Origin: Mizuhopecten yessoensis
Taxonomy: Eukaryota
NCBI RefSeq assembly: GCF_002113885.1
Contig: NW_018408770.1
Location: 714,458-778,457 of the forward strand
DNA length: 64,000 nucleotides
Direction of reading: 5' to 3'
The notes under the pieces were generated by a model. That model was not told where the DNA came from and did not search any database. It saw only the letters and a list, made by a program, of their open reading frames with translations. The translations under genes and the position numbers were made by a program. Positions 1 to 40,000 of this stretch are shown in pieces. Position 1 is the first letter of the stretch; every line of letters begins with the position of its first letter.

Positions 1-1300
1 GTGACTTGTTCTGTAGGTAATCCTCCATGACCTTGTGATACAACACAGTGACTTGTTCTGTATGTAATCCTCCATGACCTTGTGATACAACACAGTGGCT
101 TGTTCTATAGGTAATCCGCCATGACCTTGTGATACGACACAGTGTCTTGTTCTCTAGGTAATCCTCATGACCTTGTGATACAACACAGTGACTTGTTCTC
201 TAGGTAATCCTCCATGACCTTGTGATACAACACGGTGACTTGTTCTGTAGGTAATCCTCCATGACCTTGTGATACAACACAGTGACTTGTTCTGTAGTTT
301 ATCCTCCATGACCTTGTGAAACAACATGGTGACTTGTTCTCTAGGTAATCCTCCATGACTTTGTGATAGGACACAGTGTCTTGTTCTCTAGGTAATCCTC
401 ATGACCTTGTGATACAACCCAGTGACTTGTTCTCTAGGTAGTCCTCCATGCCCTTGTGATACCCCACGGTGCCTTGTTCTCTAGGTAATCCTCTATGACC
501 TTGTGATACAACACGGTCACTTGTTCTCTAGGTAATCCTCATGACCTTGTGATACAACGCGGTGACTTGTTCTCTAGGTAGTCCTCCATGACCTTGTGAT
601 ACAGCACAGTGACTTGTTCTCTAGGGAATCCTCCATGACCTTGTGATTCAACACGGTGACTTTTTCTCTAGGTAATCCTCCATGGCCTTGTTATACAACA
701 CGGTGACTTGTTCCCTAGGTAATCCTCCATGACCTGGTGATACAACACGGTGACTTGTTCCCTAGGTAATCCTCCATGACCTAGTGATACAACACGGTGA
801 CTTGTGCTCTAGGTAATCCTCATGACCTTGTGATACCACACAGTGACTTATTTTGTAGGTAATCCTCCATGACCTGGTGATACAACACGGTGACTTGTTC
901 CCTAGGTAATCCTCCATGACCTTTTGATACAACACAGTGACTTGTTGTGTAGGTAATCCTCCATGACCTGGTGATACAACACGGTGACTTGTGCTCTAGG
1001 TAATCCTCATGACCTTGTGATACAACCCGGTGTCTTTTTCTCTAGGTAATCCTTCATGACCTTGTGATACAACACCGGGACTTGTTCTCTAGGTAAACCT
1101 CCATGACCTTGTGATACAGCACAGTGACTTGTTCTCTAGGGAATCCTCATCACCTTGTGATACCACACAGTGACTTGTTCTCTAGCTAATCCTCATGACC
1201 TTGTGATACCACACGGTGACTTGTTCTGTAGGTAATCCTCCATGACCTTGTGATACGACACAGTGTCTTATTCTGTAGGTAATCCTCCATGACCTTGTGA
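1..1300 (+). repeat. 47-bp (some 45-bp) minisatellite, at least 27 copies, built from the 3' splice site plus the first 22 nt of the PLAT exon at 1279
   Basis: Unit GTAATCCTCCATGACCTTGTGATACAACACAGTGACTTGTTCTCTAG. The last copy runs directly into the coding exon. The array continues upstream of the window. Confidence 0.95.
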
Positions 1301-4300
1301 AGGACGAGAAGTTACAGTTTGATGTAGACAGATGGCTGTCCTACGATGATAAGGGTGGTGATATAGTCGTGGAAGTCCCGGTCAAACACCCTAAACACGA
1401 TGCATGGCCAGGTAAGGCAACTTCATTTTCCTAGGAATGACTCAATATGTAATCTTTGCTTTGTGATGATGGGGCAAGCATTATGTTACATGTATCAGCA
1501 TTATCAATAGTTAAGTCTCTAAGACAAGTGTTTGGCTTGGCAGTGTTTGACTTTTTATATCCAAATCTATCTATATTAACAGCATGAAGTCAATATTACT
1601 GCTAGAATGAATATGTTTGATTGTTAATCACACACTCAAGTGTTTATGTAGTGTAATAAAACAATCACTTTTTTTGTGTAATTGTAATATTGCCCATTGT
1701 TATGTCATAAGGAACAATGATGAATCTAATTATGGTGGCATTTTTTTCTCTTTTTCTGGTCAAACTTTTGACAACACGTGCTAGTTTAGATTAAGTTGTA
1801 GTGCCAGTGATGATAACAATCTCTAGCTTCCACTCCTTTTGATGATGACGATACTCCATGAAGATTACTTTGTAAAAAAATCTTTGACATCAGACCTTGT
1901 TCAACAATGAAGAATGAAATAGTCCTTCAGTCAGTTTTAGTGTGGCTTTTCTCATCAAGTATTAATTTTTCTTTCTTGTTTTCTTGTGATTTTTGACTTC
2001 ATAGCGCCAGGTAAGATTGCTTGTGTTTAGTTGTGGCTTCCTTAAATATTTAATAATGGCTTTGTAATAGTAATATATATATATGTGCATGGTGGTGAAA
2101 CAACCTTCACTTGACTCAGACATCTTAATAAGCTTCTGACTTGTATTTGTACTGTAAACCAAAAAAAAAAAAAAAAAAAAACTAGAGCAGGATTTGTGTG
2201 GTACAAATGTGTACGTATTTATATTGGGGCATATCCATGTCTTAAGTCTTTCGAAACATAAGTAGAATGTAGCAAAGAGGAAAAGGTGCATATAAACTCC
2301 TTTATAACATAGAAAATTTACACCTTTAGGCCACAACAGATCATTTCTACTTAAAAAAGTATTTTTTGTAAACCCTGCCAGACTAAATTTTAGCAACAAG
2401 GTATCAGGGACTGATAGTCCACCAGTAACTACAAGGTAACGGCCAACTTCAGGGACTGATAGTCCACCAGTAACTACAAGGTAACGGCCAACTTCAGGGA
2501 CTGACAGTCCACCAGTAGCTACAAGGTAATGGCCAACTTCAGGGACTGACAGTCCACCAGTAACTACAAGGTAACAGCCAACTTCAGGGACTGATAGTCC
2601 ACAAGTAACAACAAGGTAACGGCCAACTTCAGGGACCGATAGTCCACCAGTAACTACAAGGTAACGGCCAACTTCAGGGACTGATAGTCCACCAGTAACT
2701 ATACAAGATAACGGCCAACTTCAGGGACTGATAGTCCACCAGTAACAACAAGGTAACGGCCAACTTCAGGGACCGATAGTCCTCCAGTAACTATACAAGA
2801 TAACGGCCAACTTCAGGGACTGATAGTCCACCAGTAGCTACAAGGTAACGGCCAACTTAAGGGACTGATAGTCCACCAGTAGCTACAAGGTAACAGCCAA
2901 CTTCAGGGACTGATAGTCCACCAGTAACAACAAGGTAACGGCCAACTTCAGGGACCGATAGTCCACCAGTAACTATACAAGATAACGGCCAACTTCAGGG
3001 ACTGATAGTCCACCAGTATCTACAAGGTAACGGCCAACTTCAGGGACTGATAGTCCCCCAGTAACTACAATGTAAAGGCCAATTTCAGGTACTGATAATC
3101 CACCAGTATCTACAAGGTAACGGCCAACTTCAGGGACTGACAGTCCACCAGTAGCTACAATGTAACGGCCAACTTCAGGGACTGATAGTCCACCAGTATC
3201 TACAAGGTAACGGCCAACTTCAGGGACTGATAGTCCACCAGTAACTACAATGTAAAGGCCAATTTCAGGGACTGATAATCCACCAGTATCTACAAGGTAA
3301 CGGCCAACTTCAGGGACTGATAGTCCACCAGTAGCTACAAGGCAACGGCCAACTTCAGGGACTGATTGTCTACCAGTAACTATACAAGGAAACGGCCAAC
3401 TTCAGGGACTGATAGTCCACCAGTAGCTACAAGGTAACGGCCAACTTCAGGGACTGATTGTCTACCAGTAACTATACAAGGTAACGGCCAACTTCAGGGA
3501 CTGATAGTCCACCAGTAGCTACAAGGTAACGGCCAACTTAAGGGACTGATAGTCCACCAGTAGCTACAAGGTAAAGGCCAACTTCAGGGACTGATAGTCC
3601 CTACAAGGTAACGGCCAACTTCAGGGACTGATAGTCCACCAGTAGCTACAAGGTAAAGGCAAACTTCAGGGACTGATAGTCCCTACAAGGTAACGGCCAA
3701 CTTCAGGGACTGATAGTCCCCCAGTAGCTACAATGTAACGGCCAACTTCAGGGACTGATAGTCCACCAGTAACTATACAAGGTAACGGCCAACTTCAGGG
3801 ACAGATAGTCCACCAGTAACTACAAGGTAAAGGCCAACTTCAGGGACTGATAGTCCACCAGTAGCTACAAGGTAACGACCAACTTCAGGGACTGATAGTC
3901 CCTACAAGGTAACGGCCAACTTCAGGGACAGATAGTCCACCAGTAGCTACAAGGTAAAGGCCAACTTCAGGGACTGATAGTCAACCAGTAGCTACAAGGT
4001 AACGGCCGACTTCAGGGACTGATAGTCCACCAGTAGCTACAATGTAACGGCCAACTTCAGGGACTGATAGTCCACCAGTAACTACAATATAACGGCCAAC
4101 TTCAGGGACTGATAGTCCACCAGCAAAGTCAACCACCTTGTTACAATGCAGTTGATAATTTATACTTACAATGCATAGCTAGAATCAGATTATTACAACT
4201 GATGCTAAATAGAGAAAAACTGTAGATATTATAATATTGATCGTAGAAATACACTTCGTAACCTATAGGATATTGGAGATTCATAGTATTTTGTTTTAAA

Positions 4301-7300
4301 GTGCACCTATTATAAAACATTGCATAAATCTTCTGTAAAACCATCTTATTTTAGAAATACAATTATTATATTTAAGCTAGCAGAGCTGCACTCAACAAAA
4401 AGTAAGAAAGACATAGGAAATTTGGCGAATTCTTTATTAAAATACATGTTTATTTTCATGGGAAAAAGGAAAAACACTTTTCCGTTTAGAGAATGTGTAG
4501 ATGTAATGTCTACACTTGTGTTGTGTCAAGTGAAATAGATGTTGTGGAAATGTAATTTGTAAATTTGTACTGTTGTGTATTTGTTTATACGTACTTGAAC
4601 CAGTGAGACATATGGCTCAAGGAATAATAAATAACTTAAAGTTGAAAAAACGGTTTATAACATCTTTCTGAATGAGTTAGGAGTCTCATTATAGTACTAC
4701 GAGAAAATTTTTGGTGGATCATTAGTTGCCACTTCGTCCGTCCTTCCGTCCGTCCTTTTCGTGTCCGGAGCATAACTTTACCCACATTTCAGCTAGGATC
4801 ATGAAACTTGGTGTGTACATCACTCATACAAAGACGATGTGCACTGGCCCAAATTAGGGGCCCACAGCCCCTTATTTACATAGTTGTTGCCCTTTGCTTA
4901 AATGTTGTGTCCGGGGCATAAATTTGCCTGCATTTAAGATAGGATCATGAAACTTTCACTTGTATGTACTTTAGTCATACTAAGGTGATGTGCACTGTGC
5001 ACAATTTAGGGCTCACAACCCCTTATTTACAGACGTATTGCCCTTTGTTGCCCTTTACTAAAATGTCGTGCCTGGAGCATAGCTTTGCCTGCATCAATTA
5101 AGGTTGGATCATGAAACTTGGTGTGTACATCAGTCATACTAAGGTGATGTGCACTGTACCAAATTAAGGGTCCACTACCCCATATTTACAGAGTTGTTGC
5201 CCTATGTTAAAACATTGTGTCGGGAGCATAACTTTTCCCGCAATTAAGATAGGATCATGAAACTTTCACTTGGTTTGTACATCAGTCATACTCAAGCAAT
5301 GTGCAGGGTACCAAATTCAGCACAGAGGTATTGCCCTTTTATAAAATATTGTGTCCTGAGCATAAGTCTTGAGTCCCTTTCGAAACAAAATTGAAATGCA
5401 CAGTGTAAAAAATTTAAAATTACCATTGAATTAATATTGGTACGTGTATATCATTGTAACACATATACAATACATGTAACAGTTAACAATTGTTTTTTCA
5501 TCAACAATGATATTTTCTTCTGATAATACATACAGAAACATAATACAAAATATTGTAATCTAATGACAGAAAAGGACAGTGACCGCATCTTTGTACAGAA
5601 CGGAAATTAGATCATTTTGTTTACTATTTTTAGCTACACTGTAATAGTAATCACTCTTTCTAAAAAATGTATGCTGGAGATCCATAATTTTATATTTGCT
5701 ACTCACTTCCTGTCTTCAGGTACCTGTAATATGAAACTACTGGAAATGGCACCAAATAGATTTTTTTGTATGATGCTTTTTTGATTTCGCACTTCCAATA
5801 TTTAATCTACTTTCTTTACCCGTGACCCTAACATCACAAATTTGACTCGTGTCCATAACTGGTGAATTCTGAACTCCTAACATTACATTAGTTGTTTTTT
5901 GGAGATAAATTGGGGAAAGTTATGTTACACTTTGACCTACTTCTAGACAGATTTTTGGATGAATCCATATGTTAAATATTTTACATAAATTTCTGTACAG
6001 TATATGAAGATCCATTTTACAGATTGAAATACCGGTATATATTTATTGAAAATAAGGAAATACAGTGGGTATTAATAAAGATTCTTTTAAGATATACAGC
6101 GGTATATCACAACATCGGGTAAATAAGTGCTGTATTATTGTACACTTCTGACTGACTTTGTGTTCTCTGCAGTGAACAAGTACGTTGTACAGACGACGAC
6201 CGGGAATGAGGCTGGGTCAGGGTCAGATGCTAATGTTTACATCAACCTGTTCGGCACACTGGGTGACTCCGGCAAACGTTACCTCAAAAACAACAGGGAA
6301 GGTGGGAACACCTTCGAGACAGGAAAGGTAAGGTGAAAGGCAAAGTAGGTTATAGTGATAACCTAACCTACTTAACCTACAAAATGATAGTCCATGGAGG
6401 TCATAGGTCAGGGAGGTCACCAAGACAGAGGTCTTTGAAAAAATGAGGTGTTGTCTGTTTAGCATTCATAGTATTTCATAACTTCACACTTTAATATCAA
6501 ATCATCCTGTAATTAAGTATTTTTTATAAAATAACTATTTTGATAATGATGCAACCTTGTGAATCATGGTCTCTTAAAGATGAAACCCCTTTTGGTTGTG
6601 GTCTGATAAAGATGCAACCTCTTGAGGTCAAGGTCTGATAGAGACGCACCCTTTTGAGGTCATGGTCTGATAAAAATGCAACCTCTTCAGATCATGGTCT
6701 GATAAAAATGCAACCTCTTCAGATCATGGTCTGATAAAAACGCACCCCTTTGAGGTCATTGTCTGATAAAAACGCACCCTTTTAAGGTCATGGTCTGATG
6801 AAGATGCACCCTTTTGAGGTCATGGTCTTATAAAGATGCAACCTATTCAGAATGGTCTGATAAAGATGCAACCTCTTGAGGTCATGATCTGATCAAAGTC
6901 ACAAAATGAAAGTTGAAATGGTCACTATCGAGATTCGAGCTCTTCCTGGCCACTCCAAATTGTTCATGATCTATGAAGATTGTATGCTAGTCCTCATTAT
7001 TACTTGTAGGTGGACACCTTTGTAGTGGAGGCTGTAGAACTTGGTCGCCTAGAGACCATCGTCATTGGTCATGATTCCTCAGGATCTGATCCTGCCTGGT
7101 TGGTGGAGAGGGTCACAGTTATGGAGTCTGACGATGCAGAAAAACGTTACTTGTTTCCATGTGGCAGGTAAGTTCTGAGTCCTATAGAATACATATAGAA
7201 GATAAATCAATCTTCGTTATTTATTAATTATTAGGCTCAACATTGTAGTGTATATATTCTATCAAACACAGACTTTAGGAAGTCATTGGCATAAGAAACA

Positions 7301-8211
7301 GCTGTGATTTGTGTTGCCTTTTTATCTGTACAGAGAAAAATATCTAAAGATCTTCTTTGTAACTTTGGTTTGAGTGGTAAATATTGAACAAGTCATTGAA
7401 ACAATTTGACACTGTGACAGGGTAAAATGAGGCCTTATAGCATATATTCAACATACAGAGCTATACAAAATTTTGGTTCTATTTTTACATTCCATTATGA
7501 TAGAAAAGTCTTTGGAGAGACCTACTCTTTTTAATGTGTCAAAAAATACATTGATGATAAGCTAAGGTAAAAAAATAATCAAAAATAAGATATTGATGCT
7601 TTAAGATAAATATTTGAAATATGATTTTCAGCTTATTTATAAGGTTTGGGGGTAATTTGTACAGAATGGGTGTATAGCAGGAAACTGATAATAAATGGGT
7701 GTTTTACAGTTGGCTGAAGGACGAGAACAACGTAGAACCGGTGGAATTGGAGCTGTACATGGATCGTATGGAAAAAGTGGAAATTGTCAGCTCTGACCTT
7801 AATGTCAACGGAAATCAAGGAGGGAGGAGCACACAGGAACAGAGCCAGCAACAAGAGACCGAAGAAGGAAAGCAGGAAGAGAAAGAAGGAGGTGAAGGAG
7901 AGACAGAGGGAGATACAGAAGGGGATCAAAAACTGACAGAAGGAGATCAGGGAGAGGCAGAAGGTGAAGAAGACACAGAAGGAGGACACGAGGATCAACA
8001 AACGGATGGAGAGAAAGGAGAAAATGATCAGGATGAAACAGAAACAAAAGAAGAGACAAATAATAAAGAAAGACAGGAGGAAGATGATGGAAAAACAGAG
8101 GATGAGGATAAAAAGGACGATGAGAATCAGGTGGAAAATAATGAAGGTAATGATGGAAAAACAGATGAAACAAAACCAGAAGATACTCCAAAGAAAGAGG
8201 AAAATGACTAA
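1279..8211 (+). CDS. 3' part of a multi-PLAT/LH2-domain protein (LOXHD1-like) with an acidic C-terminal tail; the 5' exons lie upstream of the window
   Basis: Exons 1279-1411, 6173-6327, 7010-7167 and 7710-8211(TAA), all GT-AG with matching phases. They translate to VILHDLVKDEKLQFDVDRWLSYDDKGGDIVVEVPV.../VNKYVVQTTTGNEAGSGSDANVYINLFGTLGDSGKRYL...FETGK/VDTFVVEAVELGRLETIVIGHDSSGSDPAWLVERVTV...YLFPCGSWL. This is the end of one PLAT repeat plus a full PLAT repeat, followed by an E/D/G-rich tail. Confidence 0.88.
2396..4123. repeat. 45-bp intronic minisatellite, ~38 copies
   Basis: Unit CAGGGACTGATAGTCCACCAGTAACTACAAGGTAACGGCCAACTT, with 47-bp and internally deleted variants. Confidence 0.95.
4688..5400 (+). 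mobile_element. Non-autonomous Helitron/Helentron-like element with internal ~135-160-bp tandem units
   Basis: A (CGTC)n microsatellite at ~4735-4755 is followed by 4-5 diverged units starting GTGTCCGGAGCATAAC (4761, 4907, 5068, 5217, 5351). The ends were not resolved. Confidence 0.6.
6548..6895. repeat. 32-bp diverged minisatellite, ~11 copies
   Basis: Unit approximately GATGCAACCTCTTGAGGTCATGGTCTGATAAA. Confidence 0.85.
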
Positions 8212-19500: not shown

Positions 19501-22500
19501 TCAACGAAAAATGTATGAAAATATCTAACAAATTAAAATTGTAAAAGTTTAAAAAATAGCACAGTCTGAATTGTTTATGCAATGAATTCAATTTCAGTTA
19601 AAAATATATGCTAGGAAATGCTGCTGAAATTAAAAACACAAAAAAAAAAAAAAAAAATCAGGATATTTGGCAAGGATGTGTTTAATAGGTTATCATAAGT
19701 ATATATTTAATTATGTAAATATGAGTAAAGAACTGCAATGAAACCATAACTATAATGAGATTATCAGCAAATATCAAATTATAAGTATCTTGACAAAACA
19801 ATACTTAGCTTAGAGCAAAACCTCACTTACAACTCAATTACATATTTATGTCCAACAAAAAGTAAAGTTTTCAAATTTTGCAGTTAAAATACAGTAAAAC
19901 CTTGTTATACTGCCACCATTTTCATGAGAAAAGTTGGCATTATAAGGGGGTTTGGCGACAAATTGAGGGAAAATGTATGAAGGCATTCTTATGAGAAAGA
20001 GAACAAATCATGGCAGTAAAGGAGGTCGCAAATTAAAAGGGGCATTATATCGAGGTTTTAATGTAGATAAACATTCATAGTGATAAATAGCTATTTGATG
20101 AACTGACAGGTCTGGTGAGTGTGGAGGAGTATTGAACAATGTTTAACAGTTGATGTACTGACAGGTCTGGTGAGTGTGGATCCGAAGGAGTATAGAACAA
20201 TGTTTAACAGTTGATGTACTGACAGGTCTGGTGAGTGTGGAGGAGTACAGAACAATGTTTAACAGTTGATGTACTGACAGGTCTGGTGAGTGTGGAGGAG
20301 TACAGAACAATGTTTAACAGTTGATGTACTGACAGGTCTGGTGAGTGTGGAGGAGTACAGAACAATGTTTAACAGTTGATGTACTGACAGGTCTGGTGAG
20401 TGTGGAGGAGTACAGAACAATGTTTAACAGTTGATGTACTGACAGGTCTGGTGAGTGTGGAGGAGTACAGAACAATGTTTAACAGTTGATGTACTGACAG
20501 GTCTGGTGAGTGTGGAGGAGTACAGAACAATGTTTAACAGTTGATGTACTGACAGGTCTGGTGAGTGTGGAGGAGTACAGAACAATGTTTAACAGTTGAT
20601 GTACTGACAGGTCTGGTGAGTGTGGAGGAGTACAGAACAATGTTTAACAGTTGATGTACTGACAGGTCTGGTGAGTGTGGAGGAGTACAGAACAATGTTT
20701 AACAGTTGATGTACTGACAGGTCTGGTGAGTGTGGAGGAGTACAGAACAATGTTTAACAGTTGATGTACTGACAGGTCTGGTGAGTGTGGAGGAGTACAG
20801 AACAATGTTTAACAGTTGATGTACTGACAGGTCTGGTGAGTGTGGAGGAGTACAGAACAATGTTTAACAGTTGATGTACTGACAGGTCTGGTGAGTGTGG
20901 AGGAGTACAGAACAATGTTTAACAGTTGATGTACTGACAGGTCTGGTGAGTGTGGAGGAGTACAGAACAATGTTTAACAGTTGATGTACTGACAGGTCTG
21001 GTGAGTGTGGAGGAGTACAGAACAATGTTTAACAGTTGATGTACTGACAGGTCTGGTGAGTGTGGAGGAGTACAGAACAATGTTTAACAGTTGATGTACT
21101 GACAGGTCTGGTGAGTGTGGAGGAGTACAGAACAATGTTTAACAGTTGATGTACTGACAGGTCTGGTGAGTGTGGAGGAGTACAGAACAATGTTTAACAG
21201 TTGATGTACTGACAGGTCTGGTGAGTGTGGAGGAGTACAGAACAATGTTTAACAGTTGATGTACTGACAGGTCTGGTGAGTGTGGAGGAGTACAGAACAA
21301 TGTTTAACAGTTGATGTACTGACAGGTCTGGTGAGTGTGGAGGAGTACAGAACAATGTTTAACAGTTGATGTACTGACAGGTCTGGTGAGTGTGGAGGAG
21401 TACAGAACAATGTTTAACAGTTGATGTACTGACAGGTCTGGTGAGTGTGGAGGAGTACAGAACAATGTTTAACAGTTGATGTACTGACAGGTCTGGTGAG
21501 TGTGGAGGAGTACAGAACAATGTTTAACAGTTGATGTACTGACAGGTCTGGTGAGTGTGGAGGAGTACAGAACAATGTTTAACAGTTGATGTACTGACAG
21601 GTCTGGTGAGTGTGGAGGAGTACAGAACAATGTTTAACAGTTGATGTACTGACAGGTCTGGTGAGTGTGGAGGAGTACAGAACAATGTTTAACAGTTGAT
21701 GTACTGACAGGTCTGGTGAGTGTGGAGGAGTACAGAACAATGTTTAACAGTTGATGTACTGACAGGTCTGGTGAGTGTGGAGGAGTACAGAACAATGTTT
21801 AACAGTTGATGTACTGACAGGTCTGGTGAGTGTGGAGGAGTATAGAACAATGTTTAACAGTTGATGTACTGACAGGTCTGGTGAGTGTGGAGGAGTACAG
21901 AACAATGTTTAACAGTTGATGTACTGACAGGTCTGGTGAGTGTGGAGGAGTATAGAACAATGTTTAACAGTTGATGTACTAACATGTCTGGTGAGTGTGA
22001 AGGAGTATAGAACAATGTTTAACAGTTGATGTACTGACAGGTCTGGAGAGTGTGGAGGAGTATAGAACAATGTTTAACAGTTGAGGTACTAACATGTCTG
22101 ACTAGATGTACTGACAGGTCTGGTGAGACTGTACACTATAATCTGAATGTTTAACAGTTGAGGTACTAACATGTCTGACTACAAATGGAGGTCGTCCGAC
22201 ACAGCTGGCACTGGATGGGCGCTTGCTTGTTCCTACTTGCTCTAGCTTCTTCCTGTACACTGGAGACGGAGACCTAGAACGAAAAACAGAGGCAACTGTT
22301 GGCTTGTGGTAGTTTTTCTGGTCCTCCTCAGCATCAACATCCACGTATGTCCTACAGGGAGGTAAAAAGAACAGCCCAGTCAGTTAGTTGAATGATGTAT
22401 ACAGGAAAGGAAAGCTGTATATCACCTCACAGAAGAAATACAGAAAAGAAAATGAAAGTGTATTTACATGCAGAAAATAATTACTATTTCTATTATCAGG

Positions 22501-37000: not shown

Positions 37001-40000
37001 AATAACTTTATAACCTATTTTGTAGACCTCTCTGGGTCCGAGGATGAGGAAGGAGCGGCCGCCTTGGAGGAAAAAGAGGCATTAGCTCTACAGAAACGTA
37101 TCAACGCTGAACTGGATGATCAGGACTTTGGACTTGATATGTTCAAGGTATGTAGGGTGATAATAGTGTGACATGGTTGTACACTGTACTATAAACAGGT
37201 CCTTCACTGGCCCATCAATGGTGTACACTCTCATCATAAGTATGACCTTATCTTGTGCGAAGACCTCAACCTAACTAACACACCCATGTAGACATGCAGA
37301 AAGACAACTGAGTTTTGAATTATTTTGAAATAAGAATGTAATACTGAAATTAAAATGGGTGCTCTGGACACCCTTATTATAAGCATGACATTAATTTCTG
37401 GAATAACAGACTTATATGTACATTATATAAACGCATACAGATAATTGGTTATAAATTGTTTAGAATTCATAATTTAATACTGAAGTATAAGGGTGCTACA
37501 TGTTAAATAGGAGCCTTAAATTCAATGCGTCTGTTATGTATATTCAAAGACAGAAAGTGGAGTTTGTATTTCTTGCTGTTACAGGAAAAGAAGCTTGTGG
37601 AAGCTGAAAATGAGGAGGAAAAGATCACACAAGACTTGACAAAGCTGTCCAGGAAGGAGAAATTACAGGTATGTAATTTACTATACATTAAAGGTACATT
37701 AGAACTATTGAAGTATACAGGAAGATGGTTATATTTCTGTGTATGAACATTTTCTTCATCAAGCTGATCAGTAAACACTACATCAAATATTTGTTTTACA
37801 GCTTTTGAAGAAGGAGTCGCCAGAAATGCTGACTTTGATTGATGACTATAAATCCAAGGTATGTACTTCCTGTGAAAACACTCAGTGACGAGATCTCCTA
37901 ATTAGATATCCAAATTGTTTTCACCTTTAATCTTGAAAGATGTGTTTGATTATTTTTTGGCAAGATTTTGCTGTTGAATATATATATGCAAGTGTTATTG
38001 GTATATTTCCAGTATCATAGACATTCTCTAAACTTTACATGCAGTATCACCTGCGATACAGATTTCAATAAAGTGGACATTTTTGTAAAGCGTTAAAGAA
38101 AGAAATATATGTCAATGAAAATGTATTGTTTATCTGGACTTGATGACCCTGATGTTTTATTCAGGAACAGTAGTGTCACGATTTACAAGGTTTGACAGTT
38201 GTATGTGTATGTAACCTTCAGTAGATGGCAGAGATGAGAGACATGTTCATGTCACTGTTGACACTTCAGTAATCTGTGCATGCTACCCTTATATATATAT
38301 ATAGCAGGAGTGAGTGATGTCCTTATTCCACTGTTGAGACTGTATAAAGTTTTTTTACTCTTGGGTAGATGACTGAGGTGAGGGACATCTTTATGTCACT
38401 GTTGAGACTGTACACTATAATCTGTGTATGTTACTCCTGGGTAGATGACTGAGGCGAGGGACATCTTTATGTCACTGTTGAGACTGTACACTATAATCTG
38501 TGTATGTTACTCCTGGGTAGATGACTGAGGTGAGGGACATCTTTATGTCGCTGTTGAGACTATACTATAATCTGTGTATGTTACTCCTGTGTAGATGACG
38601 GAGGTGAGGGACATCTTTATGTCGCTGTTGAGACTATACTATAATCTGTGTATGTTACTCCTGTGTAGATGACTGAGGGGAGGGACATCTTTATGTCACT
38701 GTTGAGACTATACTATAATCTGTGTATGTTACTCCTGTGTAGATGACTGAGGCGAGGGACATCTTTATGTCACTGTTGAGACTGTACACTATAATCTGTG
38801 TATGTTACTCCTGGGTAGATGACTGAGGTGAGGGACATATTTATGTCACTGTTGAGACTGTATACTATAATCTGTGTATGTTACTCCTGGGTAGATGACT
38901 GAGGTGAGGGACATCTTTATGTCACAGTTGAGACTGTATACTGTAATCTGTGTATGTTACTCCTGTGTAGATGACCGAGGTGAGGGACATCTTTATGTCA
39001 CTGTTGAGACTGTATAATGTAATCTGTGTATGTTACTCCTGTGTAGATGACTGAGGCGAGGGACATCTTTATGTCACTGTTGAGACTGTACACTATAATC
39101 TGTGTATGTTACTCCTGGGTAGATGACTGAGGTGAGGGACATCTTTATGTCGCTGTTGAGACTATACTATAATCTGTGTATGTTACTCCTGTGTAGATGG
39201 CTGAGGTGAGGGACATCTTTATGTCACTGTTGAGACTATATACTATAATCTGTGTATGTTACTCCTGTGTAGATGTCTGAGGTGAGGGACATCTTTATGT
39301 CACTGTTCAGACTGTATACTATAATCTGTGTATGTTACTCCTGGGTAGATGACTGAGGTGAGGGACATGTTTATGTCACTGTTGAGACTCTATACTGAAA
39401 TCTGTGTATGTTACTCCTGTGTAGATGACTGAGGTGAGGGACATCTTTATGCCACTGTTGAGACTGGTGAGAGAGGGAAAGATCCAGGGAAAAGCTGGAG
39501 ACTATGTGGAGACTAAAACCAAACTTCACCTAAAGTAAGCTTTATTAATATTTAGAAATATATAAAACAATTTGTCGTAATCTATTCTTCTTTAAAATTT
39601 CATTTTTGTGTATATATCCATATATAAGGGACAAAGCAATTTGTAACTGATTGGTTGTTCTATGTACATATAATTATAGGCTGAATTAGTCTATAAAATA
39701 TACAATCAATGTAAGTAAAATATTCAGATCTTAAAGAAATTACTCTGGACACAAAAAGGTATTCAGCCTTTCTTATTATTATATAGCTATATAAAAGTAA
39801 TGATAGAATACATTCAGCGTATTGTGTTTGAAGGTGATTAACAGCCATACTGTGTGTACACAAATTCATTGATTTCACAAGTACAATACTTGTCACAACA
39901 GTGTGATAGTTTCATAAATATTGTTAAATTAGTACATTTGTGCCTACTTCCAGTGAGCAGTAACAGAGGTTTGAGTCTGAAAAGGAATAGTTCTAATCTG

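What the first reader, a model, noticed from the sequence alone, without database searches (positions are those of the whole stretch)
1..1300. Array of ~27 AG|GT units: each copy is an acceptor followed immediately by a donor (recursive-splice-like ladder)
Seen: the exon begins GTAATC, so most units read (Y-rich)TAG|GTAATC and each 47-nt unit is itself a GT...AG segment. Using an upstream AG without re-splicing gives a stop: ...TCT AGG TAA in 47-nt units and TTG TGA in 45-nt units. Established: AG|GT zero-length exons are the substrate of recursive splicing, and tandem duplication of AGGT-containing sequence is a proposed route to intron gain. Inference: mis-splicing to a decoy could be rescued by re-splicing from the regenerated donor, which would explain why the array is tolerated.
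Basis: partly seen in the sequence, partly recalled or inferred. Interest (0 to 1): 0.7.

Follow-up and report, generated by a model that had tools for sequence, protein, structure and literature searches.

The report
Repeated splice acceptor, last copy used
A 47-base piece covering the end of an intron and the start of the next exon is copied at least 37 extra times in an animal gene, yet the assembled transcripts join only to the last copy, so it is likely a tolerated repeat of a kind already known from lancelets and likely does not depend on recursive splicing.

Summary
The array is real. It holds 27 decoy copies of an intron/exon boundary (25 intron + 22 exon bases) before the true acceptor at 1279, and at least 10 more beyond an N run upstream. 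It lies in a LOXHD1-like PLAT-repeat gene. Of the 27, 22 read AG|GT, 4 have AG without GT, and short units are 46 nt, not 45. Contigs from 4 of 4 RNA-type runs join the upstream exon straight to 1279. This is a splice-site-spanning minisatellite ('mirage', known from amphioxus; donor versions in human F7). AG|GT looks incidental: 19 of 67 exons of this gene start with GT; decoy GT is no better kept than other positions; two of the three nearest decoys lack it; 0 of 5 other acceptor arrays on the scaffold have an exon starting GT. The intron position is shared by 10 of 11 paralogous repeats, so it is no intron gain. Likely mechanism: neutral expansion, exon definition picks the last acceptor, and NMD clears errors (inferred). 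Some re-splicing is not excluded: the regenerated donor is usable and no raw reads or lariats were available. The scan noted donor versions elsewhere in this genome.

The parts
1..1278 (+). 27 decoy units of the 47/46-nt minisatellite in the 3' end of the intron (each = first 22 nt of the exon + last 25 nt of the intron); continues upstream of the window past an N run
1254..1278 (+). true 3' splice site (pyrimidine tract and TAG), inside the last repeat unit
   Evidence: contigs of 4 of 4 runs join the upstream exon here
1279..1300 (+). exonic part of the repeat unit (22 nt, starts GTAATC, Val codon); regenerates AAG|GTAATC after splicing
1279..1411 (+). 133-nt coding exon (phase 0 to 1) of a LOXHD1-like PLAT-repeat gene, ending in a strong donor CAG|GTAAGG
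   Evidence: single copy in the genome; gene identity
1140..1232 (+). three decoys nearest the exon: 1140 (AG|GG), 1186 (AG|CT), 1232 (AG|GT, only 47 nt from the true acceptor)
6173..6327 (+). next coding exon
   Evidence: its first bases follow 1411 in the contigs; model
7010..7167 (+). further coding exon (predicted by homology)
7710..8211 (+). predicted last coding exon, stop at 8209-8211; puts any decoy-derived stop three junctions before the end of the gene
   Evidence: prediction, not RNA-checked

Best explanation
This is a minisatellite whose 47-base unit copies an old intron/exon boundary; it likely expanded neutrally, the assembled transcripts use the last acceptor, likely because exon definition favours it, and rare use of a decoy would give a stop that nonsense-mediated decay likely removes. 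Steps: (1) a local duplication of 25 intron + 22 exon bases (anatomy shown) expanded by slippage or unequal exchange (inferred). (2) Only the last copy is followed by the rest of the exon and lies nearest its strong donor, and it is the one joined (use shown at contig level; the reason is inferred). (3) Every decoy gives a premature stop (shown) three junctions before the predicted gene end, so errors are NMD substrates (inferred). (4) AG|GT is present because the exon begins with a valine codon; the donor it regenerates is likely held silent as at ordinary exons, by the stronger exon donor and the exon junction complex (inferred from human data).
For: Contigs of 4 of 4 runs (4 studies) join the upstream exon to 1279 and 1411 to the next exon. 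In 3 of 4 further runs the joint into the first unit matches only 24 letters, which is what the true exon gives; the fourth run's contig stops earlier. 19 of 67 exons start with GT and 10 of 66 junctions regenerate a donor above the 10th percentile of real donors. GT carries 6 non-majority letters in 36 full units; 72% of other position pairs carry fewer. 5 of 31 arrays in the gene span a splice site, against 4.1 expected from random placement. Five other acceptor arrays on the scaffold have exons starting AC, TG, TT, GA and GC, including about 58 AG|AC decoys before an eIF3I exon (Pfam E 1.2e-8). The intron is 288 nt without the array, against a median of 326. Amphioxus mirages, including an acceptor type in BflGb6, are reported not to disturb splicing (PMC3087553, passages; PMC3902484, one passage).
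Against: 10 of 34 scored decoys match the gene's acceptor matrix as well as or better than the true site, including 1232 (9.2 against 7.2), and folding does not make the true site more open (unpaired 0.20, the lowest of 26 junctions), so why 1279 beats 1232 is not shown. Donor ranking fits the re-splicing model (see rival). 0 of 5 exons starting GT is weak on its own (P 0.19 at the gene's base rate); I chose the five by hand; two carry only 2-3 exon bases per unit; two lack a convincing family hit. In one of the five, 4 of 6 decoys read AG|GT although the exon starts GC. Contigs drop rare forms, the output tables were cut, and 7 of the 8 runs are only guessed to be RNA. All 8 runs hold short contigs of repeat units whose origin is unresolved. 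Units are related, so letter counts are not independent events.
Confidence: 0.78

Rival explanations
1. Recursive-splice ladder: decoy acceptors are used often, each unit acts as a 47-nt cryptic RS-exon, and the regenerated donor re-splices to 1279, so the array is proofread and correct mRNA depends partly on it.
For: 22 of 27 window decoys are AG|GT. Donor scores rank as donor competition would need: regenerated AAG|GTAATC 6.3, next unit's TAG|GTAATC 3.3, true exon donor 12.6, so re-splicing would win at decoys and lose at the true exon. Drosophila cryptic RS-exons are about 50 nt and are governed by donor competition (PMC8605326, passages). The mature junction is the same under both models, so cannot separate them.
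Against: No sign of GT being kept; 6 of 35 AG-bearing decoys lack GT, two of them next to the exon; 1232 would need a 47-nt intron (shortest in gene 98). Acceptor arrays without GT are tolerated. Ratchet points are described as conserved sites in long introns; this intron was about 0.3 kb before the array and is about 7.4 kb now. In human cells the EJC blocks regenerated donors at most exons (PMC6224609, passages), and would block rescue too.
Confidence: 0.1
2. Leaky array: decoys, above all 1232, take a sizeable share of splicing, the products are destroyed by NMD, and allele length tunes the amount of mRNA.
For: 10 of 34 decoys score at least as well as the true acceptor; all give stops; repeat-unit contigs are in all 8 runs. 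Donor-side minisatellites in human 6-16 and CBS use nearby pseudo-sites (PMC1557585, introduction passages).
Against: No listed contig joins the upstream exon to a decoy (tables cut, rare forms dropped). Repeat contigs are as well explained by pre-mRNA or DNA from about 150 collapsed copies; intron contigs are present in 2 of 4 runs.
Confidence: 0.1
3. The intron, or part of it, is being gained by tandem duplication of AGGT-containing sequence.
For: Each unit is formally GT...AG; AGGT duplication is a described route (PMC3443670, passages), and mirages were proposed as seeds of new introns (PMC3087553).
Against: That route duplicates an exonic segment; here the unit includes 25 intron bases of an existing intron whose donor and first 288 nt are not repeat. 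The same phase-0 intron position is present in 10 of 11 paralogous PLAT repeats of the gene.
Confidence: 0.02

Closest known systems
Amphioxus 'mirages' (Adh3, globins BflGb6/BflGb9, PGBD5, troponin C); Ebner et al. 2010 PMC3087553 (passages read), PMC3902484 (one passage); Canestro et al. 2002 not held, cited second-hand
   Same: Minisatellite whose unit spans an intron/exon boundary; BflGb6 has the same polarity (3' end of intron + 5' part of exon); many units keep AG/GT signals; normal splicing; degenerate edge units.
   Different: Far more copies here (37 decoys seen, perhaps about 150, against 3-6 in BflGb6); a different animal group (bivalve-like by homologue and by unchecked earlier notes); length variation between alleles not tested here.
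Human F7 intron 7 37-bp VNTR, and CBS, 6-16, lamin B2, PDGF minisatellites; Borensztajn et al. 2006 PMC1557585 (abstract and passages read)
   Same: Identical pseudo-sites repeated into the intron; the exon-proximal site is chosen although the others are functional.
   Different: Those are donor arrays with a tested selection rule; this is an acceptor array, and the rule is untested.
Recursive splice sites: Drosophila ratchet points and vertebrate RS-exons (PMC8605326, PMC6224609; passages read)
   Same: AG|GT juxtaposition, a usable regenerated donor, and a downstream donor about 50 nt away.
   Different: Those are single, conserved sites in long introns with intermediates shown; here a mutable tandem array in a formerly 0.3-kb intron, with no GT conservation and no intermediates seen. 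The true exon fits the common class of constitutive 'putative RS-exons' (3.6% of human exons, 93.8% of them constitutive).
Intron gain by tandem genomic duplication (PMC3443670, passages read)
   Same: Tandem duplication of AGGT-containing sequence.
   Different: The duplicated segment is not purely exonic and the intron predates it.

Membership tests
Splice-site-spanning minisatellite (mirage) | Tandem unit contains an authentic intron/exon boundary | tested here: met
   25 intron + 22 exon bases; last unit runs into the RNA-supported exon
Splice-site-spanning minisatellite (mirage) | Locally derived, not a dispersed family | tested here: met
   All 7 exact matches of a 27-nt unit motif in the genome lie in this intron (a lower bound); the exon is single copy
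Splice-site-spanning minisatellite (mirage) | Mature mRNA is spliced at the authentic site | tested here: met
   4 of 4 runs; consistent in 3 of 4 more; contigs only
Splice-site-spanning minisatellite (mirage) | Copy number varies between alleles or cells | not testable with these tools
   One assembly with an N run inside the array; no long reads offered
Recursive splice site (ratchet point / RS-exon) | Acceptor immediately followed by GT | tested here: met
   22 of 27 window decoys, 7 of 10 upstream
Recursive splice site (ratchet point / RS-exon) | Regenerated donor is of usable strength | tested here: met
   24th percentile of 66 real donors on a matrix built from this gene; MaxEntScan not available
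Recursive splice site (ratchet point / RS-exon) | AG|GT motif is conserved by selection | tested here: not met
   Within the array GT is no better kept than other positions; no related genome was available for a cross-species test
Recursive splice site (ratchet point / RS-exon) | Lies deep in a long intron | tested here: not met
   Array abuts the exon; intron 7.4 kb with the array, 288 nt without
Recursive splice site (ratchet point / RS-exon) | Splicing intermediates or lariats at the site | not testable with these tools
   All 23 runs listed are kept as contigs; no listed contig joins the upstream exon to a decoy, which does not show absence
Intron gained by AGGT tandem duplication | Intron derived wholly from a duplicated exonic segment, at a new position | tested here: not met
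   Non-repeat donor and 5' part; position shared by 10 of 11 paralogous repeats

The most novel reading that the evidence does not exclude
A natural ladder of up to about 150 cryptic RS-exons: each 47-nt unit is an acceptor, a regenerated donor and a weaker downstream donor, so the spliceosome ratchets along the array and stops only at the true exon, whose own donor is stronger. A selfish minisatellite would then be made harmless by recursive splicing.
Probability: 0.1. Interest if true: 0.65.

Novelty: new member of a known kind. Interest (0 to 1): 0.22.

Why it matters
As it stands it extends mirages to an acceptor array with an unusually high copy number in another animal group, and shows they are common here: about 6 acceptor and at least 10 donor arrays in 1.28 Mb. 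The locus is a ready-made test of how the spliceosome picks one 3' splice site out of dozens of near-identical ones, which has been dissected for donors (F7) but, in the papers I found, not for acceptor arrays. If re-splicing were shown, it would link recursive splicing to tolerance of repeat expansion.

Tried and rejected
RNA structure as the silencer of decoys: the true acceptor is not more accessible than the 25 decoys folded; rejected. Intron gain: rejected. Dispersed satellite or transposon origin: no match outside the intron. Pfam on the 44-aa exon alone: 0 families; identity came from the neighbouring exon and tblastn. The laminin-region exon behind the 65-bp array had no Pfam or PDB hit; I kept it on score and position only. 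Acceptor candidates dropped from the survey: window 20095-22181 and the 45-bp array in L060 (better read as donor arrays on the other strand), window 38355-39466 and others with no family support (8 of the 12 acceptor candidates sent to Pfam had no hit). Depth of repeat contigs in RNA-type runs was not used as evidence. Literature: 'mirages'+minisatellite+exon gave 4 papers, 2 relevant; bivalve and scallop searches gave 0 and 3 papers, none on this by title or abstract; the search pairing recursive splicing with tandem repeats listed 20 of 1,948 papers, none on such arrays by title or abstract, and the one I opened did not link them. The library lacks most subscription papers, and no supplements were read.

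Full report
Observation. The window opens in a 47-nt tandem array (1-1300; 27.8 copies, 88% matches). Parsing gives 27 decoy junctions and the true one at 1279. Of the decoys, 22 are AG|GT, 4 are AG without GT and 1 has lost the AG; units are 47 nt (20) or 46 nt (7). All 26 AG-bearing decoys lead to a stop in the frame set by the upstream exon. The array continues upstream: after a 5,396-base run of N there are 10 more junctions, with degenerate units at the 5' edge. If the N run is all repeat, the array has about 150 units. Such runs are common on this scaffold: 9 of 19 have arrays on both sides.

Host gene. The unit is the last 25 bases of an intron plus the first 22 of a 133-nt exon. An upstream exon matches LOXHD1-like and PLAT-domain proteins (7 hits among 9 candidates, including a sponge and a bivalve protein), and tblastn maps PLAT exons over about 70 kb. 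I curated 67 internal exons from a scripted model, dropping 17 predicted exons and re-entering 12 corrected ones; a few exons remain missing. The exon is single copy, and all 7 exact matches of a unit motif lie in this intron.

RNA. All 23 runs offered are contigs, so lariats and rare junctions cannot be seen. On window 1140-2400, one long contig in each of 4 of 4 runs (4 studies; RNA status guessed) joins the upstream exon to 1279 and 1411 to the next exon. On the upstream stretch, 3 of 4 further runs show a joint from the donor into the first unit with only 24 matching letters, AG plus the 22 shared bases, as expected for the true exon; the fourth contig stops earlier. No listed row joins the upstream exon to a decoy, but both outputs were cut and contigs drop rare forms. 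All 8 runs also hold short contigs of repeat units; these may be pre-mRNA, DNA or intermediates.

Is AG|GT special? The exon starts with GT because its first codon is valine. The equivalent exons in nine other PLAT repeats start with V, M, I or L codons at the same phase-0 intron; an eleventh repeat lacks the intron. So the intron is old, and intron gain is rejected. 19 of 67 exons start with GT and 10 of 66 junctions regenerate a donor above the 10th percentile of real donors; this one is at the 24th. In humans 3.6% of exons are such putative RS-exons, 93.8% of them constitutive, held by the EJC (PMC6224609, passages). Within the array GT carries 6 non-majority letters in 36 full units, more than 72% of other position pairs; units are related, so this is a rough test. 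Two of the three nearest decoys lack GT and the nearest would need a 47-nt intron, against a minimum of 98 among 66 introns. Loss of G at +1 also weakens those two acceptors (scores 5.8 and 3.1), which may itself reflect selection against decoy use.

Is the array special? Without the array the intron is 288 nt (median 326). Of 31 arrays in the gene, 5 span a splice site (2 acceptors, 3 donors), against 4.1 expected from random placement. I scanned 1.28 Mb of the scaffold, about 21% of it tandem arrays, testing both ends of 261 arrays. Twelve acceptor and 12 donor candidates scored above 20, where 0.34% and 0.19% of 2,610 shuffled ends do. Pfam hit 4 of 12 acceptor and 8 of 17 donor candidates sent. 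I accepted five other acceptor arrays by hand: eIF3I (58 AG|AC decoys; score 19.7, Pfam E 1.2e-8), a PLAT exon of this gene (34 AG|TG), two laminin-region exons (AG|TT; 9 AG|GA and 1 AG|GT) and a 52-bp array whose exon starts GC while 4 of 6 decoys read AG|GT. None of the five exons starts GT. That is weak as a statistic (P 0.19), but it shows long acceptor ladders being tolerated without a regenerated donor.

Mechanism. Shown: the anatomy, use of the last acceptor in the main transcript, and stops after decoy use. Inferred: expansion by slippage or unequal exchange; choice of 1279 by exon definition and proximity to the strong donor (95th percentile), with a more purine-rich exon body (0.59 against 0.43); and NMD of errors, since three predicted junctions follow. 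Not explained: 10 of 34 scored decoys match the acceptor matrix at least as well as the true site, and folding gives the true site no advantage. The recursive model keeps one real point in its favour: donor scores rank exon donor 12.6 > regenerated 6.3 > next-unit donor 3.3, as donor competition at about 50-nt RS-exons would need (PMC8605326, passages). The mature junction cannot tell the models apart.

Known kinds. Boundary-spanning minisatellites were named mirages in amphioxus; BflGb6 has the same polarity and normal splicing (PMC3087553, passages; PMC3902484, one passage; the original Adh paper was not held). Human F7 shows the donor version, with the exon-proximal site always chosen (PMC1557585, abstract and passages). 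My searches found no paper on such arrays in bivalves or linking them to recursive splicing, within a library that lacks most subscription journals. Two earlier unchecked notes of this scan describe donor arrays elsewhere in this genome and call it a scallop; I had reached my reading before seeing them and did not test them.

Verdict. A real, ordinary member of a known class, with a large copy number. The recursive-splicing reading is possible but unsupported (about 0.1). Interest 0.22.

Noticed in passing
window:2005-2010 (+): Six bases between a long pyrimidine tract with AG and a GTAAGA donor: a candidate frame-keeping microexon. It is not in the four spliced contigs.
   Followed up: partly
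window:20095-22181, exon window:22171-22350 (-): The 55-bp array (about 38 copies) is a donor-spanning array of a predicted minus-strand exon; 36 decoy donors read GTCAGT. No Pfam hit for the exon.
   Followed up: partly
L002:627-1100 and L004:7524-8573: Two long donor-spanning arrays (40 bp x 10-12; 42 bp x 25) in the same PLAT gene; the second keeps an open frame for over 130 codons and fooled the gene model.
   Followed up: partly
L010:296-2611: 38-bp array of about 61 copies ending on the acceptor of an eIF3I exon (AG|AC): a long acceptor ladder in a housekeeping gene.
   Followed up: partly
L113:1180-1563: 52-bp acceptor array in which 4 of 6 decoys read AG|GT while the predicted true exon starts AG|GC.
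   Followed up: partly
L056, L058, L060, L061 (laminin-like gene); L037-L038 (bicarbonate transporter); L040-L041 (MTR4-like): Several splice-site-spanning arrays per gene: 3 donor and 2 acceptor arrays in the laminin region, 3 donor arrays in the transporter, 2 in MTR4-like.
   Followed up: partly
L008:7810: A 133-nt PLAT exon appears to end at a GC donor (GC-AG intron), inferred from phase.
   Followed up: no
L008:1439-4508: Six predicted exons inside the PLAT gene span encode a non-PLAT segment; whether it belongs to this gene is unchecked.
   Followed up: no
window:38355-39466: 76-bp array whose 3' end scores as an acceptor-spanning candidate (27.3) without family support; unresolved.
   Followed up: partly
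window:1140-1300 and L002:4145-4300: All 8 RNA-type runs hold many short contigs of the repeat unit; origin (pre-mRNA, DNA, intermediates) unresolved.
   Followed up: no
window:2404-4123: A second, 45-bp array (38.5 copies) in the next intron that touches no splice site.
   Followed up: no
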